A stretch of DNA of 64,000 nucleotides from Candidatus Eiseniibacteriota bacterium. GTDB taxonomy: Bacteria > Eisenbacteria > RBG-16-71-46 > DASYSL01. A program made the position numbers and the translations under genes. The notes beneath the pieces are model-generated. The model was not told where the DNA came from. It was given only the letters and a program-made list of their open reading frames with translations, and searched no databases. The stretch spans positions 45,891 through 109,890 of the forward strand of contig JANPEF010000153.1 of assembly GCA_031431875.1 (NCBI GenBank), written 5' to 3'. Numbering within the stretch: position 1 is the stretch's first letter; every line of letters starts with the position of its first letter. Shown piece by piece: positions 1 through 37,580 of the stretch.

Positions 1-35
1 GCCGTCGGCGCACGCGGATTCGCGGGAGGCAGACG

Positions 36-1196: not shown

Positions 1197-1197
1197 C

Positions 1198-3431: not shown

Positions 3432-3435
3432 GTCG

Positions 3436-4668: not shown

Positions 4669-4732
4669 GTCGGCTGGCGGCCGATTCACGGATGCACAAG
4701 GGCCCGGAGAGGCCCGGAAGGGAGACAAGGAC

Positions 4733-6004
4733 ATGTTCGAACTCGAGGTCGACATCCAGCCGTCCGCCATGATCAAGGTCGTCGGAGTGGGGGGCGCCGG
4801 CGGGAACGCCGTCAATCGCATGATCGCGTCGGGACTGCGCGGCGTGGAATTCCACATCGCGAACACGGACATCCAGGCGCTGACCGGCTCGATGGCCCAG
4901 CGCAAGTTGCAGATCGGACCCAATCTGACGAAGGGCCTGGGCTCGGGCGGTGACCCGATGGTCGGACGCCGCGCCGCCGAGGAGGACGAGCAGGCGATCG
5001 CCGACATGCTCGAGGGCGCCGACATGGTGTTCATCACCGCCGGCATGGGGGGCGGAACAGGCACGGGCGCTGCGCCGGTCGTCGCGCGCGTGGCGCGCCA
5101 GCTCGGCGCGCTCACCGTCGCCGTCGTGTCGCGTCCGTTCGAGTTCGAGGGCCGTCGCCGTGGGCGCCAGGCTGACGACGGCATGAACGAGCTGCGGCAG
5201 GAAGTCGACACGCTGATCGTCATCCCGAACCAGCGCCTGCTGCACGTCGTGGGCAAGGACACGCCGCTGACCGAGGCGTTCGCGGTCGCCGACGAGGTGC
5301 TGCTCAAGGCGACGAAGGGCATCTCGGACCTGGTCACCGTGCCGGGCCTGGTGAACCTCGACTTCGCCGACGTGAAGTCGATCATGGCCGCGCAGGGCAA
5401 CGCGCTGATGGGCACGGGCCGCGCGTCCGGCCCCGATCGCGCCGCCACCGCCGCGCACCAGGCCGTGTCGAGCCCGCTGCTCGAGGACGTGTCGGTCGCC
5501 GGCGCGCAGGGCGTGCTGCTCAACATCACGGGCGGGCGCGACCTCACGCTGCACGAGGTGAACGAGGCGTCCAACGTCGTCATGGAAGCGGCCGGTGTGG
5601 ATGCCAACGTGATCTTCGGCGCGGTCATCGACCCGACGCTCGACGGCGAGATCGTGATCACCGTCATCGCCACCGGCTTCGGCACGGCGGCCTCGCGCGC
5701 GTCACAGGCGCACGGCACGTCCACCAGCCGCGATGCGCGGCCGACGCCGCGCGTGCCGTCGTTCATCAGCACGCCGCGCGAGCACCTGCCGCCGGTTCCC
5801 CCGATGTCGCGCGCGTTCGCCAGCGCCGACGAGGTGCCGAGCCCGGTCGGCGCGCCCGAGGAGGACGCGATCGAGCTGTCGAGCGAGGAATCGCGCCGCC
5901 CGGCCGGATGGCGCAATCCCGAGAGCACGCTGCGCCGCCCGTCGCGCATGGGCGGCAAGGACAACTACGACGTGCCCGCGTTCCTGCGCAAGCTGCGCGG
6001 CTAG
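4733..6004 (+). CDS. ftsZ: Cell division protein FtsZ
   Basis: GGGTGTG tubulin signature, NLDFADV, C-terminal core peptide DVPAFLRK. Confidence 0.98.
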
Positions 6005-25314: not shown

Positions 25315-25509
25315 GACGGGGCTCCGGGCTCGGGAATTCGTACGGTTGATCCTGCGATCTGCCGAAGGTACGGGAGGGCAGTGGGCATTGTGACTCCGTC
25401 CGCCCTCGGGCGTCCGGTTTCGGCTCAAGCTCCTTTGCAACGTGCCGATGACGGATGCGTCGGGGGAATGCGCCCCCGAAAACGGTTGCGATTCAGGGAG
25501 GAAACCGCC

Positions 25510-26652
25510 GTGGTCGTCGTCAGCTACTCGGGCAAGGAAATCAACGCCAAGCTGGTCTATTACGGCACCGGGCTTTCGGGCAAGACGACGAACCTCGAGG
25601 CCATCTACGAAGCCGTCCCCGACAACAGTCGCGGGAAGATGGTGTCGATGAAGACGCAGTCCGACCGCACCCTGTTCTTCGACCTGCTGCCGCTCGACCT
25701 GGGCGAGGTCATGGGGTTCAAGACCCGCTTCCTCCTCTACACGGTTCCGGGCCAGGTCTTCTACAACGCCACGCGCAAGCTGGTGCTCAAGGGTGCCGAT
25801 GCGATCGTGTTCGTCGCCGACTCCGAACGCGGCAAGATGGACGAGAACAAGGAGTCGCTGTCGAACCTCCGCGCCAACCTCGCGGAGTACAAGGTCAACC
25901 TCGACGACCTGCCGTGGGTGCTGCAGTACAACAAGCGCGACCTGCCCGACGTCTACACGGTCGAGGAACTGAATCGCGAGCTCAACCCGAGCAACGTCCC
26001 CTGGGTCGAAGGCGTGGCCACCAAGGGCACGGGCGTCCTCGAGACGTTCCGCCTGGTGAGCCAGATGCTGCTCGAGCGGGTGACCAAGGACCTGCGACGG
26101 TCGCCCTCGACGACCGGCGCGCGCGAGGTGCCACGTCCCGCACCGGCCCAGTCGCCGAGTGCGCCGCAGGCGGCCTCGGCCGGTCCGGTGGCGATGCCGT
26201 CGTCGCCCCCACCGCCGACGTTCCGCGCGACTGCCGCTCCGGTCGCGCCGCAGGCTCCGAGTCCGTTTGCGCCGCAGCCGGTCGCCGCCGCACCATTGTC
26301 GCCGCTGCCTGCCATCTCCATGCCGCAGGTCCCCGGCCTGGTCACCGGATCATCGCCCTTCACTCCGTCCAGCCGGGGAGAGATCGGGACGCACCCGGCC
26401 GCAGACCGTGCCGACCGGAACGCGCCTGCCCCACCGCCGCTGCGCAGCATGCAGAAGGAGGGCCCCGGGCCGGTCATGGACCTCGGGACGAACTTCCAGC
26501 GCAACATCCAGTTGCCCACCGAGGAGCGCCTGGCCCGTCCGGCGGTCGCGAGCGAGCCGCTGGTGGTGCCCATCACGCTCGACGGCTCGGTGCGGGAGAT
26601 CGTCCTGCGCATCGTCATCGAGCAGAAGGAGCGCGTCGACCGCGCCGCTTGA
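25510..26652 (+). CDS. mglA: MglA-like small GTPase with Pro-rich C-terminal extension
   Basis: EINAKLVYYGTGLSGKTTNL, DRTLFFD, TVPGQVFY, QYNKRDLP; GTG 25510 after GGGAGGA. Confidence 0.85.
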   Translation: MVVVSYSGKEINAKLVYYGTGLSGKTTNLEAIYEAVPDNSRGKMVSMKTQSDRTLFFDLLPLDLGEVMGFKTRFLLYTVPGQVFYNATRKLVLKGADAIVFVADSERGKMDENKESLSNLRANLAEYKVNLDDLPWVLQYNKRDLPDVYTVEELNRELNPSNVPWVEGVATKGTGVLETFRLVSQMLLERVTKDLRRSPSTTGAREVPRPAPAQSPSAPQAASAGPVAMPSSPPPPTFRATAAPVAPQAPSPFAPQPVAAAPLSPLPAISMPQVPGLVTGSSPFTPSSRGEIGTHPAADRADRNAPAPPPLRSMQKEGPGPVMDLGTNFQRNIQLPTEERLARPAVASEPLVVPITLDGSVREIVLRIVIEQKERVDRAA

Positions 26653-26731
26653 CACCCTGCCGTACCGGGGGCCAGACTCGCAGGGCGTGCCGGGATCTTC
26701 CCGGTGCGCCCTGAGTGCTTTCGGAGGAGCG

Positions 26732-27313
26732 ATGCGTTCGTCCTGCGCCGCCACCCTGTTCGTGCTTCTCCTCGTCGCCACGCCCGGGCATGCCCAGGGC
26801 GGGGCGGGCTTCCCGTCGACGGCGATCCCGTCGAGCGAGTCGTACTCCACGCCTCGGTCGACGAATCTCCTGCCGCGCTCGATCTTCGATCCCTCGCGGC
26901 TGACCATCTCGAACTCGATGGTCTTCGGCTACAGCTCGGGCGGATACGGCTTCAGCCCCGGCTCGGCCGGGCTGTTCACCTCGAGCCTCGGCTACCGCAT
27001 CGCGAACAACGCCGCCCTGCACGTCGACGTCGGCGCGCACATGAACCCCGCGTTCGGCGGCGGCGGCACCGAGAAGGGGATCTTCCTCCAGAGTGCGGCG
27101 TTCGACTGGCGCCCGACGCGCAACTCGCTGCTTCGCGTCGAGTACCGAGACATGCGCTCGCCGCTGCAGGCCGGCTACGGGTACGGCAACGCATACGGCT
27201 ACGGCAACGGCTACGGAACGGGGCTCGGCGGGTGGGGCACGCCTTACGGCGCCAACCTCGGCGCGGGAGCTCCGCTCGGCGGCGGCCTGCCGGGCGATCC
27301 GCTGCGCAACTGA
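26732..27313 (+). CDS. Exported hypothetical protein with beta-strand core and Gly/Tyr-rich tail
   Basis: GGAGG RBS, signal peptide ending GHA-Q, alternating beta pattern, GYGYGNAYGYGNGYG. Confidence 0.7.
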   Translation: MRSSCAATLFVLLLVATPGHAQGGAGFPSTAIPSSESYSTPRSTNLLPRSIFDPSRLTISNSMVFGYSSGGYGFSPGSAGLFTSSLGYRIANNAALHVDVGAHMNPAFGGGGTEKGIFLQSAAFDWRPTRNSLLRVEYRDMRSPLQAGYGYGNAYGYGNGYGTGLGGWGTPYGANLGAGAPLGGGLPGDPLRN

Positions 27314-27317
27314 GCGC

Positions 27318-28154
27318 GTGACGACGCGACCGCACTCCCTCCTCGAGACACGACTGCGGGGCCTGCGCGCCGAAGGGCGCGCGGGCCTCGTGCCGTTTCT
27401 CACCGCCGGCTATCCCGACCGCGCGATCAGCGCGCGCCTGCTCGTCGCCTGTGCGCGCGCGGGGGCGACCGCCATCGAACTGGGGCTGCCGTTCTCGGAT
27501 CCGCTTGCCGATGGCCCCGCGCTGCAGGAGGCCGCGCAGGTTGCGCTCGACGGTGGCACCACCGTGGCGCACGCCCTGGCGCTGGTGCGCGACTTCGCCG
27601 CGACGCCCCAGGGTGCTGCCGTTCCCATCGTGATCATGACCTACGCGAACCCGGTGCTCGCCTACGGGTTCGAGCGCTTCGCTCGCGATGCCGCCGCCGC
27701 CGGCGTCAACGGCGTGATCGTGTCGGACCTGCCGCTCGAGGAGCGCGCGGACGTGTGGGCCGCCTTTGCCGCGGCGGGACTCGACACGATCCCGCTTGTC
27801 GCGCCGACGACGGCGGCCGCGCGCGTGCCCGGGATCGCGGCGCGCGCCTCGGGCTTCGTCTACTGCCTGTCGCGCACGGGAGTGACCGGCGATGCGCGTG
27901 CCTTCGCCGGCGAGCTCGACGACCTGGTGCGCGCTGTGCGTCTCCACACCGACGTGCCGATCGGCATCGGCTTCGGCGTCGACGACGCGGCCAAGGCGCG
28001 CTTCGTCGCGCAGCGGGCCGAGGCGGTGATCGTGGGGGCGGCGGTGGCGCGGCGGATCGCTGTGGCGCGGGCGGCGGGGGGCGATGCGGTCGTCGCCGCC
28101 GTGGAGGCGTTCGTGGGCGACCTCGTCGCGGCGGTGGCGGGAGCCCGGCCCTAG
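27318..28154 (+). CDS. trpA: Tryptophan synthase alpha chain
   Basis: FLTAGYP, ELGLPFSDPLADGP, MTYANP, SRTGVTG, IGFGV. Confidence 0.96.
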   Translation: MTTRPHSLLETRLRGLRAEGRAGLVPFLTAGYPDRAISARLLVACARAGATAIELGLPFSDPLADGPALQEAAQVALDGGTTVAHALALVRDFAATPQGAAVPIVIMTYANPVLAYGFERFARDAAAAGVNGVIVSDLPLEERADVWAAFAAAGLDTIPLVAPTTAAARVPGIAARASGFVYCLSRTGVTGDARAFAGELDDLVRAVRLHTDVPIGIGFGVDDAAKARFVAQRAEAVIVGAAVARRIAVARAAGGDAVVAAVEAFVGDLVAAVAGARP

Positions 28155-28179: not shown

Positions 28180-28216
28180 CAAAAGAGGGGAGCCGCGACA
28201 ACCGCGCGGCTCCCCT
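28180..28216 (-). terminator. Intrinsic terminator on the minus strand
   Basis: 12-bp perfect stem AGGGGAGCCGCG/CGCGGCTCCCCT, 7-nt loop, followed by CTTTTGT on minus. Confidence 0.8.
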
Positions 28217-28271
28217 GTTCAGTGTGACCCTTGCCACCCGGATCCTTCCAGGCGCCGTCGTTTCCGTCGGC

Positions 28272-28334
28272 CTAGCGCAACCACCAGAACAGGTCGGGCC
28301 AGGTCCACGCGAGATGATCGAGTTCGTCGAACAT
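28272..28334 (-). CDS. 20-aa Trp-rich peptide MFDELDHLAWTWPDLFWWLR
   Basis: GGAGGG RBS 5 nt upstream of ATG, GC-typical codons, own promoter and terminator; below ORF-track cutoff. Confidence 0.6.
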   Translation of the reverse strand: MFDELDHLAWTWPDLFWWLR

Positions 28335-28389
28335 CGTCGCCCTCCGTGAGACGGAATCGAGCGGAAGCGTTTCTCCCGCTCCACCCTCG

Positions 28390-28417
28390 TCATCGACCGG
28401 GCGGCGGGGGACTTGAG
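28390..28417 (-). promoter_or_regulatory. sigma28 (FliA)-type promoter
   Basis: CTCAAG-N14-GTCGATGA (TCAA-N15), same form as the csrA promoter. Confidence 0.55.
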
Positions 28418-28472: not shown

Positions 28473-30680
28473 TCAGAGGAACTTGAGGATCACGATCGTG
28501 CGGTCATCGGCCGGTCCGTCGCGGTGCCAGTCGGCGGCGGCGGCGAGCGCCCGGGCGGCAATCCGATCGGCCCGGAGGCCGCGATCGCGAGCGAGGACCT
28601 GGCCCAGGCGTTCGGGGTCGAACGGCGTGTCGCCCCGGAGGGCGTCGGTCAGACCGTCGGTGTAGAACGCGATCAGGCTGCCGCGCTCGAAGGTCCACTC
28701 GATCTCCTCGTAGGTCTCGCCCGAGGAGACGCCGAGGATCAGCCCGCCGTGCTCGACCTCCTCGTGGCGGCCGTCGGGGTGGACGACGATCGGCGGGTTG
28801 AGGCCCGCGTTTGCCCACGTCAGCGTGCGCCGCCGCGCGTCGAGCCGCGCGTAGGCGAGGCAGACGAACTTCTCGGGCTGGTGCAACTGCACCAGTTCCT
28901 CGTTGACGCGGACGAGTGCTGCGCCGGGGGCGAGGTCGTCGTCGACGCGGCTGCGCAGCCCTGCCTGGACGCCGGCGAGCAGCAGTGCCGCCGGCAGACC
29001 CTTGCCGCAGACGTCGGCGATCGCCACGCCGAGCGTGCGCGGGCCGAGCGGGAGGAAGTCGTAGTAGTCGCCGCCGATCTCGCCGGCCGGCACGGTCGCG
29101 CCGGCCAGGTCGACGGTGGGGAGCACCGGTGCGGTGTGCGGCAGCAGGCGCTCCTGGATGCGGCGCGCCAGTTGCACGTCGCGCTCGAGCCCGGCGCGTT
29201 CGACCAGGCGATCGTGGAGCACCGCGTTCTCGACGCGTGCCGACGCCTCGCGCGCGAACGCGGCCACCTGCTCGCGCTCGCCGGCGTCGAACCATGGACC
29301 CGACAGGCGGGGCCCGAGCGCGAGCACGGCGCGGCAGCGATCCTCGGCGAACAGCGGCACCAGCAGCGATGCGCCGTCCTCGCCGAGAGCGAGCTCGCCG
29401 GCCGTGAGCGGCGCGCGCGCCAGCGACAGCCGCTCGATCGCCGCCGCGGGCGGCGGATCGGCGAGGCGGCCGTGGCGCCTCGAGGCCTCGCCGTGCAGCG
29501 TCGCGAAGCGTGCAGCGCCGGCGGGGGAGACGGCGAACACCGCGCAGTGTTCGAGCCCGAGCGCGCGCACCAGCTCACCGGCCGCGTCGTCGAGCACCTG
29601 CGCCAGCGGCGCGAACGTGGCCGCAGCACTCACCGCGCCGGGTGTGCCGGGCTGCCGCGGCCGCTCGAAGCCAAAGCCGGCGCGCGGCCGCCCGCGCGGC
29701 AGCAGCGCGCCGCCGTCGAACACGCGATGGACGACGGTCGCGTAGCCGAAGCCCGCGGGCACGAGCAGAAGCCACAGCCCCGCGAAGTCCTCCCCCGGCC
29801 ACGCGATTGCGGGCGCGACGTTCTTGGCCAGCGTCAGGAGTGCGAGCGGCACGAGCCCGAGCGTGACGCTCCACACGAGTGCGGTGAGACGCGGACGATG
29901 CTGCGCCGCAGCGCGCCGGTACCCGCCAACGAACGTGACGACGGCGGCGAGCACGGCGCCGCAGAGGAACAGCGCGGCGAGCGCTTCGTAAGCGCCGCCC
30001 GCGAGGAAGCGCGCGGCCGGCGCCGGCGCCATCCCGGAGCGCGACGACAGGTCGAGTCCGACGGCGAGGCCGAACAGCACGATGGCGCCGCCGTATCCGA
30101 TCGCGGCGAGGCCGCGGCCCAGGCGTCCGGGTTGACCCTCGGGAAAGCGGGCGAAGAAGTCGACGAGCGCTGCCGGTAACAGCAGCGTGGCGAGCCCGCG
30201 CAAGGCCTCGAGCGCGGGGCCGCCCGGCGGACCGGCGAGCCACGCCGGTGCGACCGGATGGGGGGCGAGCGCCAGCGCGGCCGAGAACGCGAACAGCGCG
30301 AAGGCGAGGACCAGGCGATCGCCGCGCGCCGCCAGGGCAACCGCGCCGACCAGCGCGAATGCGGCGGCGAGCACGAGAGTGACGATGGAACGGGCGCGTT
30401 CACTGGCGGCGGGTGCGGTGGCCGTGAGCGTGACCTCGCGATCACCGATGCGCGCGACGTAGGTCGCACCCGGAACGGCCGGGGGCGGGGCAGCGAGCCG
30501 GTCACCCACGGCGATGTCGGCGCGATCGGCCGCCCCGCCCCGGGTCACGGCCATGACGCGATCGCCGCGCAGGCGCACGCCCCAGCTGCCGCGCGACGGC
30601 AGCTCGAGCGCGACGGCGAGCACAATCAGTCCCGCCACAATGCCGTACCCCCACACGGAGGCCCGGAGGGAACGCGTCAT
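28473..30680 (-). CDS. Membrane-bound PP2C/SpoIIE (RsbU-like) phosphatase with PDZ-like, multi-TM and GAF regions
   Basis: IGGDYYDF, IADVCGKG, YTDGLTD, DDRTIV motifs; about 7-8 TM; AGGAGG RBS. Confidence 0.88.
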   Translation of the reverse strand: MTRSLRASVWGYGIVAGLIVLAVALELPSRGSWGVRLRGDRVMAVTRGGAADRADIAVGDRLAAPPPAVPGATYVARIGDREVTLTATAPAASERARSIVTLVLAAAFALVGAVALAARGDRLVLAFALFAFSAALALAPHPVAPAWLAGPPGGPALEALRGLATLLLPAALVDFFARFPEGQPGRLGRGLAAIGYGGAIVLFGLAVGLDLSSRSGMAPAPAARFLAGGAYEALAALFLCGAVLAAVVTFVGGYRRAAAQHRPRLTALVWSVTLGLVPLALLTLAKNVAPAIAWPGEDFAGLWLLLVPAGFGYATVVHRVFDGGALLPRGRPRAGFGFERPRQPGTPGAVSAAATFAPLAQVLDDAAGELVRALGLEHCAVFAVSPAGAARFATLHGEASRRHGRLADPPPAAAIERLSLARAPLTAGELALGEDGASLLVPLFAEDRCRAVLALGPRLSGPWFDAGEREQVAAFAREASARVENAVLHDRLVERAGLERDVQLARRIQERLLPHTAPVLPTVDLAGATVPAGEIGGDYYDFLPLGPRTLGVAIADVCGKGLPAALLLAGVQAGLRSRVDDDLAPGAALVRVNEELVQLHQPEKFVCLAYARLDARRRTLTWANAGLNPPIVVHPDGRHEEVEHGGLILGVSSGETYEEIEWTFERGSLIAFYTDGLTDALRGDTPFDPERLGQVLARDRGLRADRIAARALAAAADWHRDGPADDRTIVILKFL

Positions 30681-30764: not shown

Positions 30765-30793
30765 CTCAAGCCCGCCCCGTGGGCTGCCGATCA
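30765..30793 (+). promoter_or_regulatory. sigma28-type promoter of csrA-flgM
   Basis: CTCAAG-N15-GCCGATCA (TCAA-N16), close to TAAA-N15-GCCGATAA. Confidence 0.65.
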
Positions 30794-30854
30794 CCCGGGC
30801 GAGGGGCGGAAGGGCCTGTGGACCCGATTCCGCCCCCGACCAGGGAGGTCCATC

Positions 30855-31121
30855 ATGTTGGTCCTGACAAGGAAGTTGGGCGAGAACATCCGCATCGGGG
30901 ACGTGATCAAGATCACGGTCCTCGAAGTGCGCTCGGGCCAGGTGAAGCTCGGCATCGACGCGCCGCCGGAAGTGAAGGTGCATCGCGAGGAGATCTATGC
31001 GCGCATCCAGGCCGAAAATCGCCGGGCCGCAGCGACGTCGCCGGAGGCTCTCCGTGACGCCGCCCGGGATCTCCCCTGGTCGGCCGAAGAGCGCGGGCCG
31101 AAAGGACCTTCTCGACCCTGA
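30855..31121 (+). CDS. csrA: Carbon storage regulator CsrA (long, flagellar-associated type)
   Basis: MLVLTRK...IRIGD...[16 protein letters not shown]; C-terminal extension. Confidence 0.95.
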
Positions 31122-31158: not shown

Positions 31159-31356
31159 ATGAACCAGGACTCCAATCGCTCGCCCCGACTCGCCGTGCTG
31201 TCCCTCGTCGAAGCGATCGGCACGCCCGCCGCAGCCGTCCGTGCGGACCGCGTGCGCGCGGCGCGAGCCCGCGTCGACGGGGGCTACTACGATCGCATCG
31301 ACGTCCGCCGAGCGCTCGTCGCCGCCCTGCTCGACCAGCTGGTCGCATCGTCCTAG
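31159..31356 (+). CDS. flgM: Anti-sigma28 factor FlgM-like protein (65 aa)
   Basis: VRADRVRAARARVDGGYY...RRALVAALL matches the FlgM C-terminal motif; fliA nearby. Confidence 0.65.
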   Translation: MNQDSNRSPRLAVLSLVEAIGTPAAAVRADRVRAARARVDGGYYDRIDVRRALVAALLDQLVASS

Positions 31357-31412: not shown

Positions 31413-32642
31413 ATGGGCGCGCCCGCCAGGAATTCCACCCGCTCTCCACGAACTGCCGACACGAACGGGCCAGAGGCCGCGTTCGACGCCGAGTGCAACG
31501 CGCTTGCCGGCCTCGGAGACCTGCTCTCCGACGGCCTCGTCGTGTCCGATGCCGAGGGCAAGGTCCGCTACGCCAATCCCGAAGCCCTGCGCATGCTCGG
31601 CGCCACCGCGACGTGGGTGCGCGCTCGGGTCACGGGCGAGGTGTTGCGCACCGCGGTGCCGGGCGCCGATCCGCTTGCCGACGCGAAGGCGGGGGAGCCG
31701 CAGGTCGAGGAGACGCTGCTGCTCACGAGGGCCGGCAACGAGGTGCCCGCGCGCGTCACGTTGCGGCGGCTCGCCTCGGGCGGCGCGTGCGCGGCGCTCC
31801 GGGACCTGACGCAGGACCAGCGGCTGCAGCGCGAGCTGCGCCTGCGCGAGCGCCTCGCCACCGTCGGCGAGCTGGCCGCCGGCGTCGCGCACGAGATCCG
31901 CAATCCGCTGGCCGGGATCTCGTCGGCGGCGCAGGTGCTGCTGACGCGCTTCGAGCCGCGTGACGATCGCCAGAAGTTCTGCCGCGTGATCATCGAGCAG
32001 GTCGACCGGCTCGATCACACGGTGACCAGCCTGCTCAAGTTCGCGCGGCCGCCCGAGCCACAGTTGCGCCCGACGGTGCTGCCCGACGTGATCGAGCGCG
32101 TGCTCACGCTCGAGGCCGAGCGCCTCGCCGAGGGCAAGGTCGCGGTCGAGCGCCGCTACGCCGCCCGCGTGCCGACGCTCTACCTCGACCCGGGCCTGAT
32201 CGAGCAGGTGCTGCTCAACCTGGTGCAGAACGCGGTCCAGGCCATGCCCGGGGGCGGTTCGCTCACGTTCGAGCTGGGCCTCGCCACGCGACGCACGCGC
32301 GGGGCGGAGCGCTCGCGCGGTCGCCGGACCCTCGACGCCTCGCCGGCGACGGCGGGGGGCGAGGCCGCGCGGATCGGCGGGCCCGACGAGATTCCGGTCG
32401 TGCGGCTGCGGCTGCTCGACACCGGCCTGGGCGTGCCGAAGGAAGTGCTGCCCCGCCTGTTCGATCCGTTCTTCACCACGAAGGCCTCGGGCACCGGGCT
32501 CGGGCTCTCGATTTCGCAGTCCATCATCCAGGAACACGGGGGAGCGATCTCGATCGCCAGCCGCGAGGGACGCGGCACCACCGTCATCATCGAGTTTCCG
32601 CTGGAGAAACGACATGGCCAGAGACGAGAAGACGCTCGCTAG
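31413..32642 (+). CDS. Cytoplasmic PAS histidine kinase (NtrB-like)
   Basis: PAS, AHEIRNPL H-box, NLVQNA, FDPFFTTK..GTGLGL; no TM. Confidence 0.92.
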   Translation: MGAPARNSTRSPRTADTNGPEAAFDAECNALAGLGDLLSDGLVVSDAEGKVRYANPEALRMLGATATWVRARVTGEVLRTAVPGADPLADAKAGEPQVEETLLLTRAGNEVPARVTLRRLASGGACAALRDLTQDQRLQRELRLRERLATVGELAAGVAHEIRNPLAGISSAAQVLLTRFEPRDDRQKFCRVIIEQVDRLDHTVTSLLKFARPPEPQLRPTVLPDVIERVLTLEAERLAEGKVAVERRYAARVPTLYLDPGLIEQVLLNLVQNAVQAMPGGGSLTFELGLATRRTRGAERSRGRRTLDASPATAGGEAARIGGPDEIPVVRLRLLDTGLGVPKEVLPRLFDPFFTTKASGTGLGLSISQSIIQEHGGAISIASREGRGTTVIIEFPLEKRHGQRREDAR

Positions 32643-34122
32643 CACGACGGGCACCATCCTTGTGGTCGAGGACGAGCAGGCACAGCGCGAGACGCTGTGT
32701 GCGTTCCTCGGCGAGGAGTACACGATGCTCGAGGCGGGCAACGGCACGGAGGCGCTCGCGCACGTCAGCGAGAACCCGGTCGACCTGGTGTTCCTCGACC
32801 TGAGGCTCGGGCGCGAGGATGGTCTCGAGATCCTCAAAAAGCTGCGCGCCGAGGCGCCCGGCCTGCCCGTGATCATGCTCACGGCGCACGGCACGCCCGA
32901 GCATGCGTTCACGGCGTACCGCCATGGCGCCGTGCACTTCATGTCGAAGCCATACAAGCTGGATGAACTGAAGGAGCGCGTCCGCTACGAGTTCGAGGCC
33001 GCCGCCTTGCGTCGCGAGAAGGAAAACCTCGAGGGGGTGCGCGCCGAGTTCGCCGGCCAGCCGCTGCTCGGCTCGAGCCCGGAGCTCAAGCGCGTGCTGG
33101 AGCAGATCACCAAGATCGCGCGCCTCTCGACCTCGACCGTGCTGATCCGTGGTGAGACGGGCGCCGGCAAGGAACTCGTCGCGCAGCAGGTGCACGTGCA
33201 GAGTCCGCGTGGCTCGGGCCCGTTCGTCGAGCTCAACTGTTCGGCCGTTCCCGAGAACCTGCTCGAGTCCGAGTTGTTCGGCTTCGAGCGCGGCGCGTTC
33301 ACCGACGCCAAGCGCACCAAGAAGGGCGTCTTCGAGATGGCCGCCGCGGGCACGCTGTTCCTCGACGAGATCGGTGAGATGTCGCTGGGCCTGCAGGCCA
33401 AGCTGCTCAAGGTGCTCGAGTCGAAGACATTCCGCCGGCTCGGCGGCACGGCCGACATCACGGTCGACACGCGCGTCGTCGCGGCCACCAATCGCGACCT
33501 GAAGAAGGAGGTCGAGCTCGGCCGCTTCCGCGAGGACCTCTACTTCCGGCTCCAGGTGATTCCCATCGAAGTGCCACCGTTGCGCGCCCGGGCGAGCGAC
33601 ATCCCGATGTTGTTGCGCCACTTCATCGATCGCTTCTCGCGCGAGGTGGGCCGCATGCCGGCGCGCCTCCATCCCGAGGCCGAGCGCCTGCTCGTCGGCT
33701 ACGCGTGGCCCGGCAATGTGCGCGAGCTGCGCAACGTGATCGAGCGCATCGTGCTGCTCGAGAGTGACGAGGAGATCCGGCCCGAGCACCTGCCGTCCGA
33801 GATTTCGCGGCCGGCGGCGACGGCGAGTGTCGCGGGTGCGCCGGCGGCGACCAGTGCGGTGAGTGCGAGTGCCGGTGGTGGTGGTCCTGGCGGCGGCTCC
33901 GCCGCCGGGACATCGGTGGGTGCGGTGTGGTTCTCGCCGGGCGTCATCATGCCCCTGGCCGAGGTCGAGATGCGGGCGATCCAACACGCGCTGGGCTGCG
34001 AGCGCGGCAACAAGACGCGCGCGGCACAGGCGCTGGGAATCTCGCGCCAGACGCTGCGCACCAAGCTCAAGGAGCACGCCCTCGAAGAGGCGGCCGAGGG
34101 GGTGGACGAGGGCGGCGACTAG
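32614..34122 (+). CDS. sigma54-dependent response regulator (REC-AAA+-Fis HTH)
   Basis: REC, GETGAGKE, GAFTDA, FLDEIGE, WPGNVRELRN, GNKTRAAQALGISR. Confidence 0.95.
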   Translation: MARDEKTLASTTGTILVVEDEQAQRETLCAFLGEEYTMLEAGNGTEALAHVSENPVDLVFLDLRLGREDGLEILKKLRAEAPGLPVIMLTAHGTPEHAFTAYRHGAVHFMSKPYKLDELKERVRYEFEAAALRREKENLEGVRAEFAGQPLLGSSPELKRVLEQITKIARLSTSTVLIRGETGAGKELVAQQVHVQSPRGSGPFVELNCSAVPENLLESELFGFERGAFTDAKRTKKGVFEMAAAGTLFLDEIGEMSLGLQAKLLKVLESKTFRRLGGTADITVDTRVVAATNRDLKKEVELGRFREDLYFRLQVIPIEVPPLRARASDIPMLLRHFIDRFSREVGRMPARLHPEAERLLVGYAWPGNVRELRNVIERIVLLESDEEIRPEHLPSEISRPAATASVAGAPAATSAVSASAGGGGPGGGSAAGTSVGAVWFSPGVIMPLAEVEMRAIQHALGCERGNKTRAAQALGISRQTLRTKLKEHALEEAAEGVDEGGD

Positions 34123-34757: not shown

Positions 34758-34999
34758 GCGGCGAGGATGCCGTTGCGGTCGCCCTCGATGGACTCGAGGG
34801 GGAGGCGCGCCTCGTGCTCGCGCTCCTCTTCATCGAAGGCTTGAACGAGGCCGAAACCGCCGCCGCGCTCGACCGTCCGGTCGCCCACGTTCGTCGGCTC
34901 GCCGGGCTGGCGCAGGGAGCGCTGGCGGCGGCACTCGCCGGTGCGGCCCGCCGGACGGCCGGTCCCACGCTCGCTTCAGGGAGGAAGCATGCGCCGTAA
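34754..34999 (+). CDS. Stand-alone sigma70 region-4-like HTH protein (81 aa)
   Basis: GTGA overlap; gapless alignment by eye to region 4 of the neighbouring FliA. Confidence 0.6.
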   Translation: MSGEDAVAVALDGLEGEARLVLALLFIEGLNEAETAAALDRPVAHVRRLAGLAQGALAAALAGAARRTAGPTLASGRKHAP

Positions 35000-35246
35000 C
35001 GCCGCAACGTCGACCGAGAAGTCGACCGAGAAGTCGACCGAGAAGAAGCCGTTGGCCGCGCGTCTCACCCAGGTGCGTCGCATGGTCGAGCGCGTCGAGG
35101 CGGAGCGCGTCAAGTTCGAGGACGTCGGCCTGACGCGCCTGGCGCAAGAGAAGGCCCGCGAGAAGCGCTACTGGCAGTTCGTCCAGGCCGTGCTCGAGCT
35201 GCAGCCCTGGATGGGCCAGACGCCGAGCCGGCACACGGTGCACTGA
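34989..35246 (+). CDS. Small helical hypothetical protein (85 aa)
   Basis: AGGAGGAAG RBS, GC-typical codons, STEK x3 then charged helix. Confidence 0.6.
   Translation: MRRNAATSTEKSTEKSTEKKPLAARLTQVRRMVERVEAERVKFEDVGLTRLAQEKAREKRYWQFVQAVLELQPWMGQTPSRHTVH
35009..35044 (+). repeat. 12-bp tandem repeat x3 (GTCGACCGAGAA)
   Basis: Three exact in-frame copies encoding STEK. Confidence 0.85.
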
Positions 35247-35523
35247 GCAACACGAGGACGATCGGACCGCATGGACGCGGTCGCACGGTTCCGCAGGGAC
35301 GCGGGACGATCCGGGCCCGGGAGCGTGACTCCCGGGCCCGACCATTTTCTGGCCGCACGACACGGGGACGCGCGATTCATGTTCAGTCGGCCGGGTCGGC
35401 GGCCGACAACCGTCCAGCTCTCTCCCGCCGAAGGCGGGAGAAGCGATTTTGGTCAAGTTCATAACTCCTAGTCACATAAGCCGTTCACGCATTCACTTCA
35501 GATTGCCTCACGGCCGTGCGCCG

Positions 35524-35539
35524 TGGCACGCGCCTTGCG
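35524..35539 (+). promoter_or_regulatory. sigma54 -24/-12 promoter of flhG-fliA operon
   Basis: TGGCACG-CGCC-TTGCG, near-perfect consensus. Confidence 0.85.
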
Positions 35540-36483: not shown

Positions 36484-36503
36484 ACCGTCCGAGGAGATCG
36501 CCC

Positions 36504-37580
36504 ATGCCCCGTCTCTCGTCGACTCCGTCGCGCGCCCCGAAGGGCACGCCCCGCCTCACCCTGGTCAAGGGCGGCCGCGGCAAGCCCGTCCGCTCCGCGG
36601 CACTCCGTCCGGTCAAGGCCGTCGCCCGTACGACGAAGGCGACGACCGTCGCGGCGAAGCCGCCCCAGGCGAAGAAGTCGACGAAGCTCGTGCCGGCAAA
36701 GGCGGCCAGGCTCGTGCCGGCCAAGGCGCCCGTGGCGCGCGTCGCGCCGCACACGGCGATGCTGCGTGCGCCGCTGGCGCTGGTGCCCAGGAAGCCGCTC
36801 AAGGGCGCGGCCGAGATCGCGGCGGCGCGGGCCCGCGCGGCGGCGGCGAATGCGGCCGATCCGCCGGTGCGCGTGGCGCGCGAGAAGCTGCTCGAGCGCT
36901 ACACGCCGCTCATCAAGTACGTCGTCGAGCGCCTGTCGGTCGGGCTGCCCAAGAACGTCGACCACGACGACCTCATGTCGGCCGGCATCCTGGGCCTGCT
37001 CGATGCCTACGACAAGTTCGATGCGTCGAAGGGAACGAAGTTCGAGACCTACGCGGTGTGGCGCATCAAGGGCGCCGTGCTCGACCAGCTCCGCGCGCTC
37101 GACTGGGCGTCACGCTCGATCCGCCGCAAGGCGCGCGAGGTCGAGGCCTCGACGCGCCGGCTCGACCAGCGTCTCGGTCGCGCGGCCTCCGACGAGGAGG
37201 TCGCCAAGGAGGCCAAGATGCCGCTGGCCGACTACCACCGGCTCATGGACCAGGTGCGGGGCGCGGTGCTGCTGTCGCTCGACGAGACGCGCTCGCCCGA
37301 GGAGGGCGACTCGCTCGGCCTGGCCGAGCTCATCGAGGACCCGAACGTGCCGGACGTGCTGGCGCGCATCGAGGAGGAGGAGACGCGTCTCGTCCTGCTC
37401 GACACGCTCAACCGCCTGCCCGAGCAGGAGCGCATTGTGGTCGCGCTCTACTACTACGAGCACATGACCCTGCGCGAGATCGGCGTCACGCTCGGCATCT
37501 CCGAGTCGCGCGTGTCGCAGGTCCACTCACGGGCCGTCGTCCGTCTCAAGAGCCGCGTCCGTCGCGCGCTCGCCGCCTGA
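36504..37580 (+). CDS. fliA: RNA polymerase sigma28 (FliA/WhiG) with long basic N-terminal extension
   Basis: DDLMSAGILGLLDA, FETYAVWRIKGAVLDQLR..DW, GISESRVSQVH; GAGGAG RBS. Confidence 0.92.
   Translation: MPRLSSTPSRAPKGTPRLTLVKGGRGKPVRSAALRPVKAVARTTKATTVAAKPPQAKKSTKLVPAKAARLVPAKAPVARVAPHTAMLRAPLALVPRKPLKGAAEIAAARARAAAANAADPPVRVAREKLLERYTPLIKYVVERLSVGLPKNVDHDDLMSAGILGLLDAYDKFDASKGTKFETYAVWRIKGAVLDQLRALDWASRSIRRKAREVEASTRRLDQRLGRAASDEEVAKEAKMPLADYHRLMDQVRGAVLLSLDETRSPEEGDSLGLAELIEDPNVPDVLARIEEEETRLVLLDTLNRLPEQERIVVALYYYEHMTLREIGVTLGISESRVSQVHSRAVVRLKSRVRRALAA

What the first reader, a model, noticed from the sequence alone, without database searches (positions are those of the whole stretch)
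28180..28417. Unannotated sigma28-type small transcript with CsrA-binding-like hairpins
On minus: promoter CTCAAG-N14-GTCGATGA, a 5' hairpin (28359-28381), ACGGA on the SD, hairpin GCCGACG-GAAA-CGACGGC (28254-28271), hairpin CCTGGA-AGGA-TCCGGG (28237-28252; AAGGAU with GGA in the loop, the canonical CsrA site geometry) and a terminator. Eight GGA in ~200 nt. The promoter matches the one driving csrA 2.4 kb away, and fliW, the usual protein antagonist of this CsrA type, is not beside csrA. Inference: a CsrA-titrating or CsrA-controlled RNA outside the gammaproteobacterial CsrB/RsmZ families.
Basis: partly seen in the sequence, partly recalled or inferred. Interest (0 to 1): 0.75.

Follow-up and report, generated by a model that had tools for sequence, protein, structure and literature searches.

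The report
Sigma-28-driven gene for a 20-residue peptide
The flagged "small RNA" is a real, unannotated, self-contained transcription unit, but it is chiefly a messenger RNA for a conserved 20-amino-acid tryptophan-rich peptide from a previously undescribed micro-protein family; binding of the regulator CsrA is possible but is not its core purpose.

Summary

The window comes from a Candidatus Eisenbacteria MAG. In every related Eisenbacteria locus recovered with enough upstream sequence, the same unit follows the same membrane GAF-PP2C phosphatase gene:
- a promoter CTCAAG-N14/15-GxCGATxx
- a 5' hairpin
- a Shine-Dalgarno sequence
- a 17-22-codon ORF ending in W-[PSA]-D-[LI]-F-W-W-[LIM]-R
- a terminator.

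Variation within the conserved codons is almost entirely synonymous, so the ORF is under selection as a peptide. Other small proteins (11-64 aa) end in the same nonapeptide. They occur on phage-like or mobile-element contigs, and none matches Pfam, NCBIfam or PHROGs.

The GGA hairpins of the 3'UTR are conserved only in the window's close subclade. Eight GGA is not more than the local composition predicts. Rfam gives no match at gathering score. A non-coding CsrA sponge is therefore not supported. CsrA control of this mRNA, or a dual function, stays open: the transcript is 100% identical to a strain that is 7% diverged elsewhere. The peptide's function is unknown. Verdict: a new small-protein gene in a FliA/WhiG-type regulon, of moderate interest.

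The parts
28412..28417 (-). -35-like element CTCAAG of a FliA/WhiG (sigma-28)-type promoter
   Evidence: Read. Invariant in 13 of 13 aligned orthologues and present in 23 of 23 loci that include upstream sequence. The motif occurs 3 times in the window against 0.11 expected.
28390..28397 (-). -10-like element GTCGATGA (orthologues: GCCGATGA, GCCGATAC, GCCGATAA, GACGATAA)
   Evidence: The spacer diverges while both elements are kept. The window and L001 differ at 2 of 14 spacer positions and at no position of either element.
28359..28381 (-). 5'-terminal hairpin GAGCGGGAG-AAACG-CUUCCGCUC, starting about +2 of the inferred transcript (the start near 28383 is inferred, not shown)
   Evidence: Predicted. 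In 13 orthologues 94% of cells pair, and the only changes are GC<->GU on the 3' arm. The 18-mer GTGGAGCGGGAGAAACGC is exact even in loci whose phosphatase is only 56% identical.
28340..28347 (-). Shine-Dalgarno GGAGGG (28345-28340) preceded by AC, giving ACGGAGG. This is both the ribosome-binding site and a candidate CsrA site.
   Evidence: GGAGG lies 5-8 nt before the start codon in all orthologues.
28272..28334 (-). 20-codon ORF plus stop codon: MFDELDHLAWTWPDLFWWLR*
   Evidence: Orthologous ORFs were found without bias, through the phosphatase gene, in L011, L012 and L014. GC3 is 85%, as in the genome's genes. It is the first in-frame start codon downstream of the promoter.
28275..28301 (-). 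Codons 12-20, WPDLFWWLR: the family-defining C-terminal nonapeptide
   Evidence: There are 7 variable nucleotide sites in these 9 codons across subclades. Six are synonymous and one changes Leu to Met. The same motif ends small ORFs in 33 of 72 metagenome pattern hits and ends every protein hit except two (P0012 frame-shifted, P0021 a variant).
28254..28271 (-). 3'UTR hairpin 1, starting 1 nt after the stop codon and presenting ACGGAA
   Evidence: CCGACGGAA is conserved in 7 of 7 members of the window subclade. Group A3 has GGUC[ACGGAA]GACC at the same place. It is absent from the L032/L037 subclade and from group A2.
28237..28252 (-). 3'UTR hairpin 2, CCUGGA-AGGA-UCCGGG (extendable to 8 bp) with GGA in a tetraloop
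   Evidence: RNAalifold keeps it in 7 of 7 subclade members, with the loop reading NGGA in all and one compensatory GC->AU change in L083. It is not found outside that subclade.
28180..28216 (-). Intrinsic terminator: a 12-bp GC-rich stem followed by CUUUUG. It lies 26 nt beyond the stop codon of the convergent trpA gene.
   Evidence: Conserved, with compensatory changes, in orthologues.
28473..30680 (-). Context: a membrane phosphatase (TM, weak PDZ, multi-TM region, GAF, PP2C/SpoIIE domain) immediately upstream. It is the one neighbour that is always present.
   Evidence: Pfam SpoIIE 2.9e-40, GAF_3 2e-8, PDZ_6 E = 0.019. The gene order phosphatase -> small ORF holds in all Eisenbacteria-type loci that cover it, with phosphatase identity from 37% to 96%.
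30765..31121 (+). Context: csrA (30855-31121) with the same promoter type (CTCAAG-N15-GCCGATCA, 30765-30793)
   Evidence: CsrA TIGR00202, 94.5 bits. The promoter is conserved upstream of csrA in L001, L043, L015 and L054.
36501..37580 (+). Context: the FliA/WhiG-family sigma factor gene, the presumed reader of the promoter
   Evidence: TIGR02479, 252 bits against a cutoff of 189.6. It is preceded by a MinD/FlhG-like ATPase gene.

Best explanation
The region is a monocistronic gene of about 205 nt on the minus strand.

**How the transcription unit is built**
- A FliA/WhiG-type (sigma-28-like) promoter fires near 28383.
- The RNA begins with a stable 5' hairpin. I infer that it protects or marks the 5' end, as 5' stabiliser stem-loops do on other sigma-28/sigma-D mRNAs.
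- A strong Shine-Dalgarno sequence drives translation of a 20-residue Trp-rich micro-protein, MFDELDHLAWTWPDLFWWLR.
- An intrinsic terminator ends the transcript opposite the 3' end of the convergent mglA-like/trpA operon.

**The gene product**
- The product that matters is the peptide.
- Its invariant C-terminal nonapeptide W-P-D-[LI]-F-W-W-[LI]-R, at or one residue from the free C-terminus, defines an undescribed micro-protein family.
- The family is found in Eisenbacteria, always just downstream of a membrane GAF-PP2C phosphatase gene and beside csrA. It is also found on phage-like or mobile-element contigs.

**Inferred mechanism (not shown)**
- The peptide acts in trans through this aromatic, membrane-interface-type tail on a conserved cellular target.
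- In Eisenbacteria it most plausibly gives sigma-28-dependent feedback to the adjacent membrane phosphatase and the signalling module it controls. The layout resembles Rap-Phr cassettes or MgrB-PhoQ: a small peptide gene with its own alternative-sigma promoter placed behind the enzyme gene it modulates.

**The GGA motifs**
- GGA motifs at the Shine-Dalgarno sequence and in the subclade-specific 3'UTR loops may let CsrA tune this mRNA. That would be an accessory layer.

**Confidence in each sub-claim**
- Real, conserved transcription unit with a sigma-28-type promoter: about 0.85.
- Translated, with the peptide as the selected product: about 0.85.
- Peptide acts in trans: about 0.6.
- Functional coupling to the phosphatase: about 0.3.
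For: **The ORF is selected as a peptide**
- Orthologous units were found through the neighbouring phosphatase, which is unbiased with respect to the ORF. L011, L012 and L014 carry the same promoter, hairpin, Shine-Dalgarno sequence and 20-21-codon ORF.
- In L011 all 4 nucleotide differences within WPDLFWWLR are synonymous.
- Across 12 distinct 20-codon orthologues, variable sites by codon position are 8/5/13. In the last 9 codons they are 2/0/5, with a single conservative amino-acid change. Ala9 uses all four codons.

**The whole unit is conserved**
- The promoter motif is present in 23 of 23 loci while the spacer diverges.
- The window and strain L001 differ at 7% of 11.6 kb. They show 0 differences over the 225 nt from the -10 element to the terminator, the longest identical run in the comparison (P about 4e-7). 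The flanks on both sides are 16-63% diverged.

**Synteny**
- The order csrA <- | phosphatase -> small ORF -> | <- (trpA) p191 mglA-like holds at phosphatase identities of 37-96%.

**The family extends beyond Eisenbacteria**
- A back-translated motif scan of metagenomes gave 72 hits. In 33 of them a stop codon follows the motif within one codon, against roughly 5-10% expected by chance. These hits have Shine-Dalgarno and start signals and encode ORFs of 11-40 aa.
- A word-indexed search and an exhaustive HMMER search of 1.84 billion representative proteins recovered only small proteins of 30-64 aa. All but two end in WPD[LI]FWWLR: P0012 is frame-shifted after ...FWW and P0021 ends in a variant, WPDIFWWAWFR.

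**Sigma factor and competing ORFs**
- The sigma factor belongs to the FliA/WhiG family.
- The competing 80-aa ORF (28393-28151) starts inside the -10 element, so it is not a candidate.
Against: - There is no expression, translation or binding data. All homologues are metagenomic, and the transcription start is inferred.
- The metagenome and word-based searches fixed W, D, F, W, W and R by design. Conservation at those positions outside the three unbiased loci is therefore partly due to how the hits were found. The adjacent stop codon, the Pro at position 2 and the small-ORF architecture were not fixed.
- The absence of any synonymous change against L001, and an 18-nt 5' segment that stays exact at 56% protein identity, show RNA-level constraints that a simple mRNA does not explain.
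- Family members on mobile elements have no PP2C neighbour. The target of the motif therefore cannot be specific to that phosphatase.
- The phosphatase's PDZ assignment is weak (E = 0.019), and a C-terminal Arg or His is not a typical PDZ ligand.
- AlphaFold gives only a low-confidence model (pLDDT 64).
- No flagellar structural gene was found in the 64 kb. 'Sigma-28 regulon' here may mean a WhiG-like developmental regulon.
Confidence: 0.7

Rival explanations
1. Dual-function or CsrA-controlled mRNA. Besides encoding the peptide, the RNA is bound by the neighbouring CsrA at the Shine-Dalgarno sequence (ACGGAGG) and at GGA loops (hairpin 1, ACGGAA; hairpin 2, AAGGAU). Either CsrA represses translation of the peptide, or the abundant sigma-28-driven RNA buffers free CsrA. 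The C. jejuni flaA mRNA does the latter. This rival adds to the best explanation and does not exclude it.
For: - Three A-N-GGA sites are present.
- The tetraloop of hairpin 2 keeps GGA in 7 of 7 subclade members, with one compensatory pair.
- ACGGAA sits in a loop directly after the stop codon in both the A1 subclade and the distant A3 group, on different stems.
- In A2 the loop of the 5' hairpin reads AGGAU or AGGAA and the Shine-Dalgarno region reads GAGGAUC.
- The UTRs are invariant against L001.
- csrA is 2.4 kb away under the same promoter type.
- The 3'UTR has a sub-threshold, full-length resemblance to the CsrA-binding sRNA McaS (24.4 bits).
- There is a precedent for a dual-function sigma-28 mRNA that titrates CsrA: PMC4894983.
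Against: - GGA and A-N-GGA counts are not significant against shuffles (P = 0.32 and 0.09).
- Any GGAGG Shine-Dalgarno sequence contains GGA.
- The 3'UTR hairpins are missing in the L032/L037 subclade and in A2.
- A 2026 survey predicts that few Eisenbacteria CsrAs are functional on the B. subtilis hag GGA-hairpin reporter (PMC13443453), so the canonical rules may not transfer.
- Binding cannot be tested here.
Confidence: 0.3
2. This is the first reader's model: a non-coding CsrA sponge or antagonist RNA, a functional analogue of CsrB/RsmZ that replaces FliW.
For: - There are eight GGA in about 200 nt, two of them in hairpin loops.
- The unit has its own promoter and terminator.
- csrA lies nearby, and no fliW was found in the ORFs scanned.
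Against: - The ORF is conserved under peptide-level selection.
- GGA is not enriched beyond local composition.
- Five of the eight GGA lie in stems, in the ORF or in the Shine-Dalgarno sequence.
- The GGA hairpins are lineage-specific.
- No Rfam family reaches its threshold.
Confidence: 0.05
3. A cis-acting regulatory nascent peptide. The Trp-rich ORF, with tandem TGG TGG three codons before the stop, would be a leader or arrest peptide like TrpL, TnaC or SpeFL. Ribosome stalling would control the hairpins and terminator downstream, for example read-through antisense to trpA.
For: - Four of the 20 codons are Trp.
- Conservation is concentrated in the last 9 residues next to the stop codon, while the N-terminal length varies from 11 to 64 aa. 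That pattern is typical of arrest peptides.
- Hairpin 1 starts 1 nt after the stop codon.
- trpA is convergent in most loci.
- A motif that is invariant across unrelated hosts fits a universal target such as the ribosomal exit tunnel.
Against: - In the window and most orthologues no co-oriented gene lies downstream, and a strong terminator follows.
- trpA is absent from the A3 locus and is displaced by another gene in L011 and L085.
- No alternative antiterminator pairing was evident.
- The stop codon varies among TAG, TGA and TAA, and some members carry an extra His or Arg after the motif.
- N-terminal residues Leu5 and Ala9 are also conserved in Eisenbacteria.
- On phage-like contigs the ORF sits in tightly coupled operons without terminators.
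Confidence: 0.1
4. A chance ORF and chance hairpins in a GC-rich intergenic spacer, with the terminator belonging to trpA.
For: High-GC genomes are full of spurious ORFs and stable hairpins.
Against: - Promoter, hairpin, ORF and terminator are conserved as a unit in more than 15 distinct lineages.
- The run of 225 nt without a single substitution has P of about 4e-7.
- The terminator's T-run is on the minus strand.
Confidence: 0.02

Closest known systems
Sigma-28/sigma-D-dependent flagellin mRNAs controlled by CsrA (B. subtilis hag; C. jejuni flaA, a dual-function mRNA that also titrates CsrA; PMC4894983, PMC13443453)
   Same: A sigma-28-type promoter, a structured 5' leader, GGA overlapping the Shine-Dalgarno sequence, and csrA in the same regulatory neighbourhood. 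The idea that a coding RNA can also buffer CsrA.
   Different: - The product is a 20-aa peptide, not flagellin.
- No FliW partner is seen.
- The candidate second sites lie in the 3'UTR or in the stem of the 5' hairpin, not in a leader loop.
- CsrA binding is untested, and the GGA elements are not conserved across the family.
E. coli sigma-28-dependent small RNAs UhpU, MotR, FliX and FlgO (PMC10578931)
   Same: Short transcripts belonging to the sigma-28 regulon.
   Different: Those are UTR-derived, Hfq-dependent base-pairing sRNAs. This one is a free-standing gene with a conserved ORF. No complementary target for its invariant 5' segment was found in the window.
CsrB/CsrC/RsmX/Y/Z sponges and McaS (RF00115)
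   Same: Hairpins presenting GGA, followed by a terminator. The 3'UTR aligns to the full McaS model at 24.4 bits.
   Different: The score is below the gathering threshold of 42 bits. At most 2-3 GGA are exposed. The RNA is coding. No Rfam family reaches its gathering score.
Dual-function sRNAs that encode small proteins (SgrS/SgrT, RNAIII/hld, SR1/SR1P; from general knowledge)
   Same: An RNA of about 200 nt with a conserved micro-ORF, plus conserved non-coding parts under RNA-level constraint.
   Different: No base-pairing function or target has been identified, and there is no sequence relationship.
Small peptide genes placed behind the signalling enzyme they modulate (Rap-Phr cassettes with sigma-H-driven phr promoters; MgrB-PhoQ; from general knowledge)
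   Same: A phosphatase gene followed by a tiny ORF that has its own alternative-sigma promoter. The conserved, presumably active part of the peptide is its C-terminus.
   Different: - The Eisenbacteria peptides have no signal peptide or export signal.
- The enzyme is a PP2C phosphatase, not a Rap-type one.
- The same motif occurs on mobile elements that have no such phosphatase.
- The analogy rests on gene layout alone.
Leader or arrest peptides (TrpL, TnaC, SpeFL; from general knowledge)
   Same: A short ORF with tandem Trp codons and a conserved C-terminal segment abutting the stop codon. SpeFL ends ...FDFHFFNAR-stop; this peptide ends ...PDLFWWLR-stop.
   Different: No regulated downstream gene and no antiterminator. 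The stop codon and the tail residue vary, and the N-terminal part is also conserved within Eisenbacteria.

Membership tests
CsrA-sequestering sRNAs (CsrB/CsrC/RsmX/Y/Z type) | Non-coding RNA | tested here: not met
   A conserved 20-codon ORF preceded by a Shine-Dalgarno sequence shows a synonymous-dominated substitution pattern.
CsrA-sequestering sRNAs (CsrB/CsrC/RsmX/Y/Z type) | Many GGA motifs, mostly in hairpin loops or single-stranded stretches, in excess of background | tested here: not met
   There are 8 GGA, against a shuffle mean of 6.7 (P = 0.32). Only hairpin 1 (partly) and hairpin 2 present GGA in a loop.
CsrA-sequestering sRNAs (CsrB/CsrC/RsmX/Y/Z type) | Match to a curated covariance model | tested here: not met
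   No Rfam match at gathering score in the whole window. The local scan at E <= 10 lists no Csr/Rsm family. McaS scores 24.4 bits against a threshold of 42.
CsrA-sequestering sRNAs (CsrB/CsrC/RsmX/Y/Z type) | High-affinity binding of several CsrA dimers | not testable with these tools
   This needs a gel-shift or co-immunoprecipitation experiment.
FliA/WhiG (sigma-28)-dependent promoter | TAAA-N15-GCCGATAA-like elements with the correct spacing | tested here: met
   The window has TCAA-N15-GTCGATGA. Orthologues have GCCGATAA, GCCGATGA or GCCGATAC. Both elements are conserved while the spacer varies. The consensus is taken from general knowledge.
FliA/WhiG (sigma-28)-dependent promoter | A cognate sigma factor encoded in the genome | tested here: met
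   TIGR02479 FliA_WhiG, 252 bits against a cutoff of 189.6, at 36501-37580.
FliA/WhiG (sigma-28)-dependent promoter | Transcription that depends on that sigma factor | not testable with these tools
   This needs in vitro transcription or a sigma-factor mutant.
Bacterial small-protein (micro-ORF) gene | A ribosome-binding site and start codon at the proper spacing, with the frame and stop codon conserved | tested here: met
   GGAGG lies 5-8 nt before ATG or GTG in all orthologues. ORFs are 17-22 codons long in Eisenbacteria.
Bacterial small-protein (micro-ORF) gene | Purifying selection at the amino-acid level | tested here: met
   In the last 9 codons, 6 of 7 variable sites are synonymous. Ala9 uses four codons. 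L011, found without bias, has 4 of 4 synonymous changes.
Bacterial small-protein (micro-ORF) gene | A detectable translation product | not testable with these tools
   This needs ribosome profiling, a tagged fusion or mass spectrometry.
Known protein families (Pfam, NCBIfam, PHROGs) | A significant profile match | tested here: not met
   No family matched for eight (Pfam, NCBIfam) and five (PHROGs) family peptides at E <= 10. All homologues are labelled 'hypothetical' with no Pfam domain.
Amino-acid-sensing transcription attenuator (TrpL type) | Regulatory codons in a short leader ORF | tested here: met
   Four Trp codons, including a tandem TGG TGG.
Amino-acid-sensing transcription attenuator (TrpL type) | Mutually exclusive terminator and antiterminator, with a co-oriented biosynthetic operon downstream | tested here: not met
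   No antiterminator appears in the fold. The downstream gene is convergent. trpA is absent from the A3 locus.
CsrA-repressed mRNA (hag/glgC type) | GGA overlapping the Shine-Dalgarno sequence, plus a second GGA site in a nearby hairpin loop | tested here: inconclusive
   The Shine-Dalgarno site is present in all orthologues but cannot be separated from the GGAGG sequence itself. The upstream GGA motifs lie in the stem of the 5' hairpin in A1 and in its loop in A2. The 3'UTR loops are subclade-specific.

The most novel reading that the evidence does not exclude
The invariant C-terminal nonapeptide WPD[LI]FWW[LI]R marks a cross-lineage micro-protein family that nobody has described. The family is chromosomal and under FliA/WhiG control in Eisenbacteria, and it is carried by phage-like or mobile elements elsewhere. 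It would act on a universally conserved machine, such as the ribosomal exit tunnel, the division apparatus or the membrane. In Eisenbacteria its RNA would in addition be a dual-function molecule whose GGA loops and Shine-Dalgarno sequence engage the neighbouring FliW-less CsrA, closing a sigma-28-CsrA-peptide feedback loop.
Probability: 0.12. Interest if true: 0.8.

Novelty: new member of a known kind. Interest (0 to 1): 0.5.

Why it matters
- The result turns an apparent regulatory-RNA candidate into a concrete, testable small-protein gene that automated annotation misses. Most family members fall below the length cut-offs of gene callers.
- It defines a micro-protein family by a nine-residue C-terminal motif that stays identical between an uncultured bacterial phylum and unrelated phage-like elements. 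Such invariance suggests a highly conserved molecular target.
- It gives the first sketch of a FliA/WhiG-type regulon in Candidatus Eisenbacteria: the csrA/flgM-like genes, an mglA-like GTPase operon and this peptide. A sigma-54 promoter precedes the flhG-like/fliA pair.
- If the RNA also binds CsrA, it would be a compact example of a dual-function RNA in a lineage whose CsrA proteins are predicted to be atypical.

Tried and rejected
- **Rfam.** The gathering-score scan of the whole window found nothing. The local scan at E <= 10 found only miRNA-like matches to the terminator and a sub-threshold McaS match. These are not memberships.
- **80-aa ORF 28393-28151 and plus-strand ORFs across the region.** Rejected. 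The 80-aa ORF starts inside the -10 element, and none of these frames is conserved.
- **Pfam, NCBIfam and PHROGs on the family peptides.** No hit.
- **tblastn of a family peptide against 50,697 phage genomes.** No match.
- **IMG/VR scan with the motif pattern.** Two hits, of which the one examined is not a family member and the other was not inspected. "Phage-borne" therefore rests only on neighbouring genes: RtcB PHROG hits, tyrosine recombinase, SLT and PD-(D/E)XK nuclease. Neighbours of the L087 element match no PHROG.
- **AlphaFold of a 40-aa member with the family alignment.** pLDDT 64, with only a one-turn helix in the motif. Uninformative.
- **Search for a base-pairing target of the invariant 5' segment in the window.** It found only itself.
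- **FtsZ C-terminal-peptide mimicry.** The window's own FtsZ ends ...[13 protein letters not shown]. The D-[VIL]-x-x-[FW]-L-R spacing matches D-L-F-W-W-L-R, but only 3 of 9 residues are identical and the hallmark Pro is missing. Kept only as a low-probability lead.
- **PDZ-ligand idea.** The phosphatase N-terminus scores PDZ_6 at E = 0.019. It is weak, and a C-terminal Arg or His is atypical for PDZ ligands.
- **Trp attenuation of antisense transcription into trpA.** The adjacency to trpA is not universal.
- **SD-sequestering mini-hairpin UCCGU-CUC-ACGGA.** Only 71% of cells pair across orthologues, so it is not supported.
Full report
**Observation**

- CTCAAG (28417-28412), a 14-nt spacer and GTCGATGA (28397-28390)
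- a 9-bp hairpin, GAGCGGGAG-AAACG-CUUCCGCUC (28381-28359)
- ACGGA overlapping the Shine-Dalgarno GGAGGG (28347-28340)
- two small hairpins (28271-28254 and 28252-28237)
- a 12-bp terminator followed by CUUUUG (28216-28180). It is the only terminator-like site between 27000 and 32000.

The RNA folds much better than shuffles of itself (z = -4.7). The count of eight GGA is correct. Dinucleotide-preserving shuffles of the same RNA give 6.7 on average (P = 0.32). The count looks high only against the genome background (mean 3.0 per 204 nt, with 2.5% of tiles reaching 8). The promoter pattern occurs three times in 64 kb against 0.11 expected. Each copy is intergenic and correctly oriented: before an mglA-like GTPase gene, before this unit, and before csrA.

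Seven nucleotides after GGAGGG there is an ATG (28334). It opens a 20-codon frame, MFDELDHLAWTWPDLFWWLR, that ends with TAG at 28274-28272, one nucleotide before hairpin 1. It is the first in-frame start codon after the promoter. The 80-aa ORF listed mechanically across the region starts inside the -10 element, so it is not a candidate.

**Origin and relatives**

The exact CsrA protein of the window occurs on a Candidatus Eisenbacteria MAG contig and on several assemblies of sequencing runs. Gene calls there show nothing between trpA and the phosphatase gene.

I then searched one genome per species using the upstream phosphatase as query. That search is blind to the small ORF. It returned Eisenbacteria loci with 56% and 48% identical phosphatases, and each carries the same unit downstream:
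- CTCAAG-N14-GCCGATAC or GACGATAA
- a 5' hairpin
- GGAGG
- a 20-21-codon ORF: MMDHLMDFAFSWPDLFWWLR, MMDHLMHLAFSWPDLFWWLR or MKDWLHVSWSEWSDIFWWIRH
- a terminator.

In L011 the four nucleotide differences within WPDLFWWLR are all synonymous.

**Family-wide evidence**

A back-translated pattern for W-x-D-x-F-W-W-x-R found 72 metagenome contigs. In 33 of them the motif is followed by a stop codon within one codon. Nineteen of those are Eisenbacteria-type loci.

Local tblastn shows a conserved arrangement at phosphatase identities from 37% to 96%:
- flgM-like <- csrA
- phosphatase -> small ORF
- <- (trpA) <- p191 <- mglA-like

The adjacency to the phosphatase is universal. trpA is missing in group A3 and is displaced by an inserted outer-membrane-type gene in L011 and L085.

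Other conservation results:
- The promoter motif is present in all 23 loci that have upstream sequence, while the spacer varies.
- Among 12 distinct 20-codon orthologues, variable sites by codon position are 8/5/13. In the last nine codons they are 2/0/5, with one Leu->Met change. Ala9 uses all four codons.

This is the signature of a translated peptide. The pattern search fixed W, D, F, W, W and R. It did not fix the adjacent stop codon, the Pro at position 2 or the small-ORF architecture, and the three loci found through the phosphatase agree with the rest.

**RNA-level constraint**

The window and strain L001 differ at 7% of 11.6 kb. trpA is 93.8% identical, the phosphatase gene 94.2% and csrA 97.4%. 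Yet the 225 nt from the -10 element to the terminator contain no difference at all. This is the longest identical run in the comparison, with P of about 4e-7. The 55 nt upstream and the 41 alignment columns downstream are only 84% and 37% identical.

For the 5' hairpin, 94% of cells pair across 13 orthologues, with only GC<->GU changes on the 3' arm. Its 5' arm and loop, GTGGAGCGGGAGAAACGC, are exact even where the phosphatase is 56% identical. This asymmetry is unexplained. No complementary target exists in the window.

**The CsrA question**

The window's subclade has seven distinct sequences, with phosphatase identity of about 68% or more. In it the 3'UTR keeps CCGACGGAA in hairpin 1. It also keeps an 8-bp hairpin 2 with an NGGA tetraloop in 7 of 7 members and one compensatory GC->AU change. 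Group A3 has GGUC[ACGGAA]GACC directly after its stop codon.

Other lineages lack these features:
- The L032/L037 subclade has only about 20 nt between the stop codon and the terminator.
- Group A2 has none. There an AGGAU or AGGAA motif sits in the loop of the 5' hairpin instead.

Rfam gives nothing at gathering score. A local permissive scan gives a full-length but sub-threshold match of the 3'UTR to McaS, an E. coli sRNA known to bind CsrA (24.4 bits against 42). A 2026 survey predicts that few Eisenbacteria CsrAs act on the canonical B. subtilis hag GGA-hairpin target (PMC13443453).

My reading is as follows. A non-coding sponge is not supported. CsrA control of this mRNA, or a buffering role like that of the C. 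jejuni flaA mRNA (PMC4894983), is plausible for some lineages but cannot be the conserved core function.

**The peptide family**

Pfam, NCBIfam and PHROGs do not recognise the peptides. A word-indexed search of 5.8 billion proteins and an exhaustive HMMER search of 1.84 billion representatives recovered only about 20 proteins of 30-64 aa. All carry the motif at the C-terminus, except the frame-shifted P0012 and the variant P0021, which ends ...WPDIFWWAWFR. All are labelled hypothetical.

N-terminal parts vary widely:
- acidic, with a D-P-G-G segment
- a two-helix membrane hairpin
- a lipoprotein-like signal ending in Cys
- only two residues (MRWLDIFWWMR).

Outside Eisenbacteria the genes sit among small unknown ORFs. 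Their neighbours include tyrosine recombinases, SLT lytic transglycosylases, PD-(D/E)XK nucleases, an RtcB-like ligase (PHROG E = 7e-34) and nucleoside deoxyribosyltransferase-like genes. That is a phage-like or mobile-element context. No member was found in IMG/VR or in GenBank phages, and the neighbours of one element match no PHROG. AlphaFold is uninformative.

**Mechanism**

Shown or strongly supported:
- The unit is conserved and self-contained, with a FliA/WhiG-type promoter. A FliA/WhiG-family sigma gene lies at 36501-37580.
- The unit encodes a peptide that is under selection.

Inferred:
- The 5' hairpin stabilises or marks the mRNA.
- The peptide acts in trans through its aromatic C-terminal tail, which always lies in a membrane-proximal position in members that have hydrophobic N-termini.
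- In Eisenbacteria the peptide feeds back on the adjacent membrane GAF-PP2C phosphatase. This rests on universal gene adjacency and on the layout analogy with Rap-Phr and MgrB-PhoQ.

Two points weaken the last inference. Mobile-element members have no such phosphatase neighbour, and the phosphatase's PDZ assignment is marginal.

An arrest-peptide reading (TnaC- or SpeFL-like) fits the C-terminal invariance and the tandem Trp codons. It lacks a regulated downstream gene. A resemblance to the FtsZ C-terminal peptide of this same organism is too weak to count.

**Novelty and verdict**

This is a new small-protein gene of a known general kind, overlooked by annotation and embedded in a FliA/WhiG-type regulon next to csrA. 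It is not a member of any curated RNA or protein family tested.

Interest is moderate at 0.5. The invariance of the nonapeptide across unrelated genetic contexts is unusual, and so is the invariance of the whole RNA between strains. Function remains inferential, and no experiment is possible on these uncultured organisms without heterologous work.

Noticed in passing
window 35524-35538 (+): A perfect sigma-54 promoter consensus, TGGCACG-N4-TTGC, lies about 60 nt upstream of the MinD/FlhG-like gene (ATG 35597) that precedes the FliA/WhiG sigma gene. A sigma-54-dependent response regulator is encoded just upstream (32614-34122). This suggests a sigma-54 -> sigma-28 cascade like those of polar flagellates.
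   Followed up: partly
window 25424-25451 (+) and 25513-28154: A third sigma-28-type promoter, CTCAAG-N14-GCCGATGA, precedes an mglA-like small GTPase with a long C-terminal extension, followed by a 191-aa secreted-looking protein and trpA. trpA therefore appears to sit in a sigma-28-type operon, away from any trpB. The leader contains GACGGAUGCGUC and a GGGGG/CCCCC hairpin.
   Followed up: partly
window 31159-31356 (+): A 65-aa ORF directly after csrA resembles the anti-sigma-28 factor FlgM only weakly (Pfam FlgM E = 0.05, 14 bits). If it is real, csrA and flgM form a sigma-28-driven pair, which is an unusual arrangement.
   Followed up: partly
window 36501-37580 (+): The FliA/WhiG-family sigma factor is 359 aa long and has an N-terminal extension of about 125 residues with no match. 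Its best NCBIfam hit is WhiG. No flagellar structural gene or fliW was found among the ORFs scanned in the 64 kb, so the regulon may not be flagellar.
   Followed up: partly
window 35190-35360 (+): This is the second-longest stretch (170 nt) identical between the window and strain L001. It spans the end of a small lysine/glutamate-rich ORF (34990-35246) and a terminator-like hairpin, GGGCCCGGGAG...CUCCCGGGCCC, followed by UUUUC. It may be another constrained RNA element.
   Followed up: no
window 28366-28383 (-); L011, L017, L085: The 18-mer GTGGAGCGGGAGAAACGC at the 5' end of the transcript is exact in lineages whose neighbouring proteins are only about 56% identical, while the pairing 3' arm varies. 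This points to sequence-specific recognition by a protein, or a role as a stand-by or SD-like site. It remains unexplained.
   Followed up: partly
window 3-6004 (+): The end of a division/cell-wall cluster is present: murG, murC, ftsQ, ftsA and ftsZ. FtsZ ends ...[17 protein letters not shown] and FtsA ends in an amphipathic ...[10 protein letters not shown].
   Followed up: partly
L036, L048, L081 (phage-like contigs), motif positions 105, 166 and 332 in the motif-strand orientation: On these contigs the micro-ORF lies immediately after an RtcB-like RNA ligase gene. Its stop codon overlaps the next start codon (..CGATGA..), so it is a translationally coupled micro-gene in an RNA-repair or nucleotide-metabolism module.
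   Followed up: partly
L014 445-845: The 400-nt spacer between the phosphatase gene and the small-ORF promoter in this lineage contains several TTTGAAA/TTTCAAA repeats of unknown meaning.
   Followed up: no
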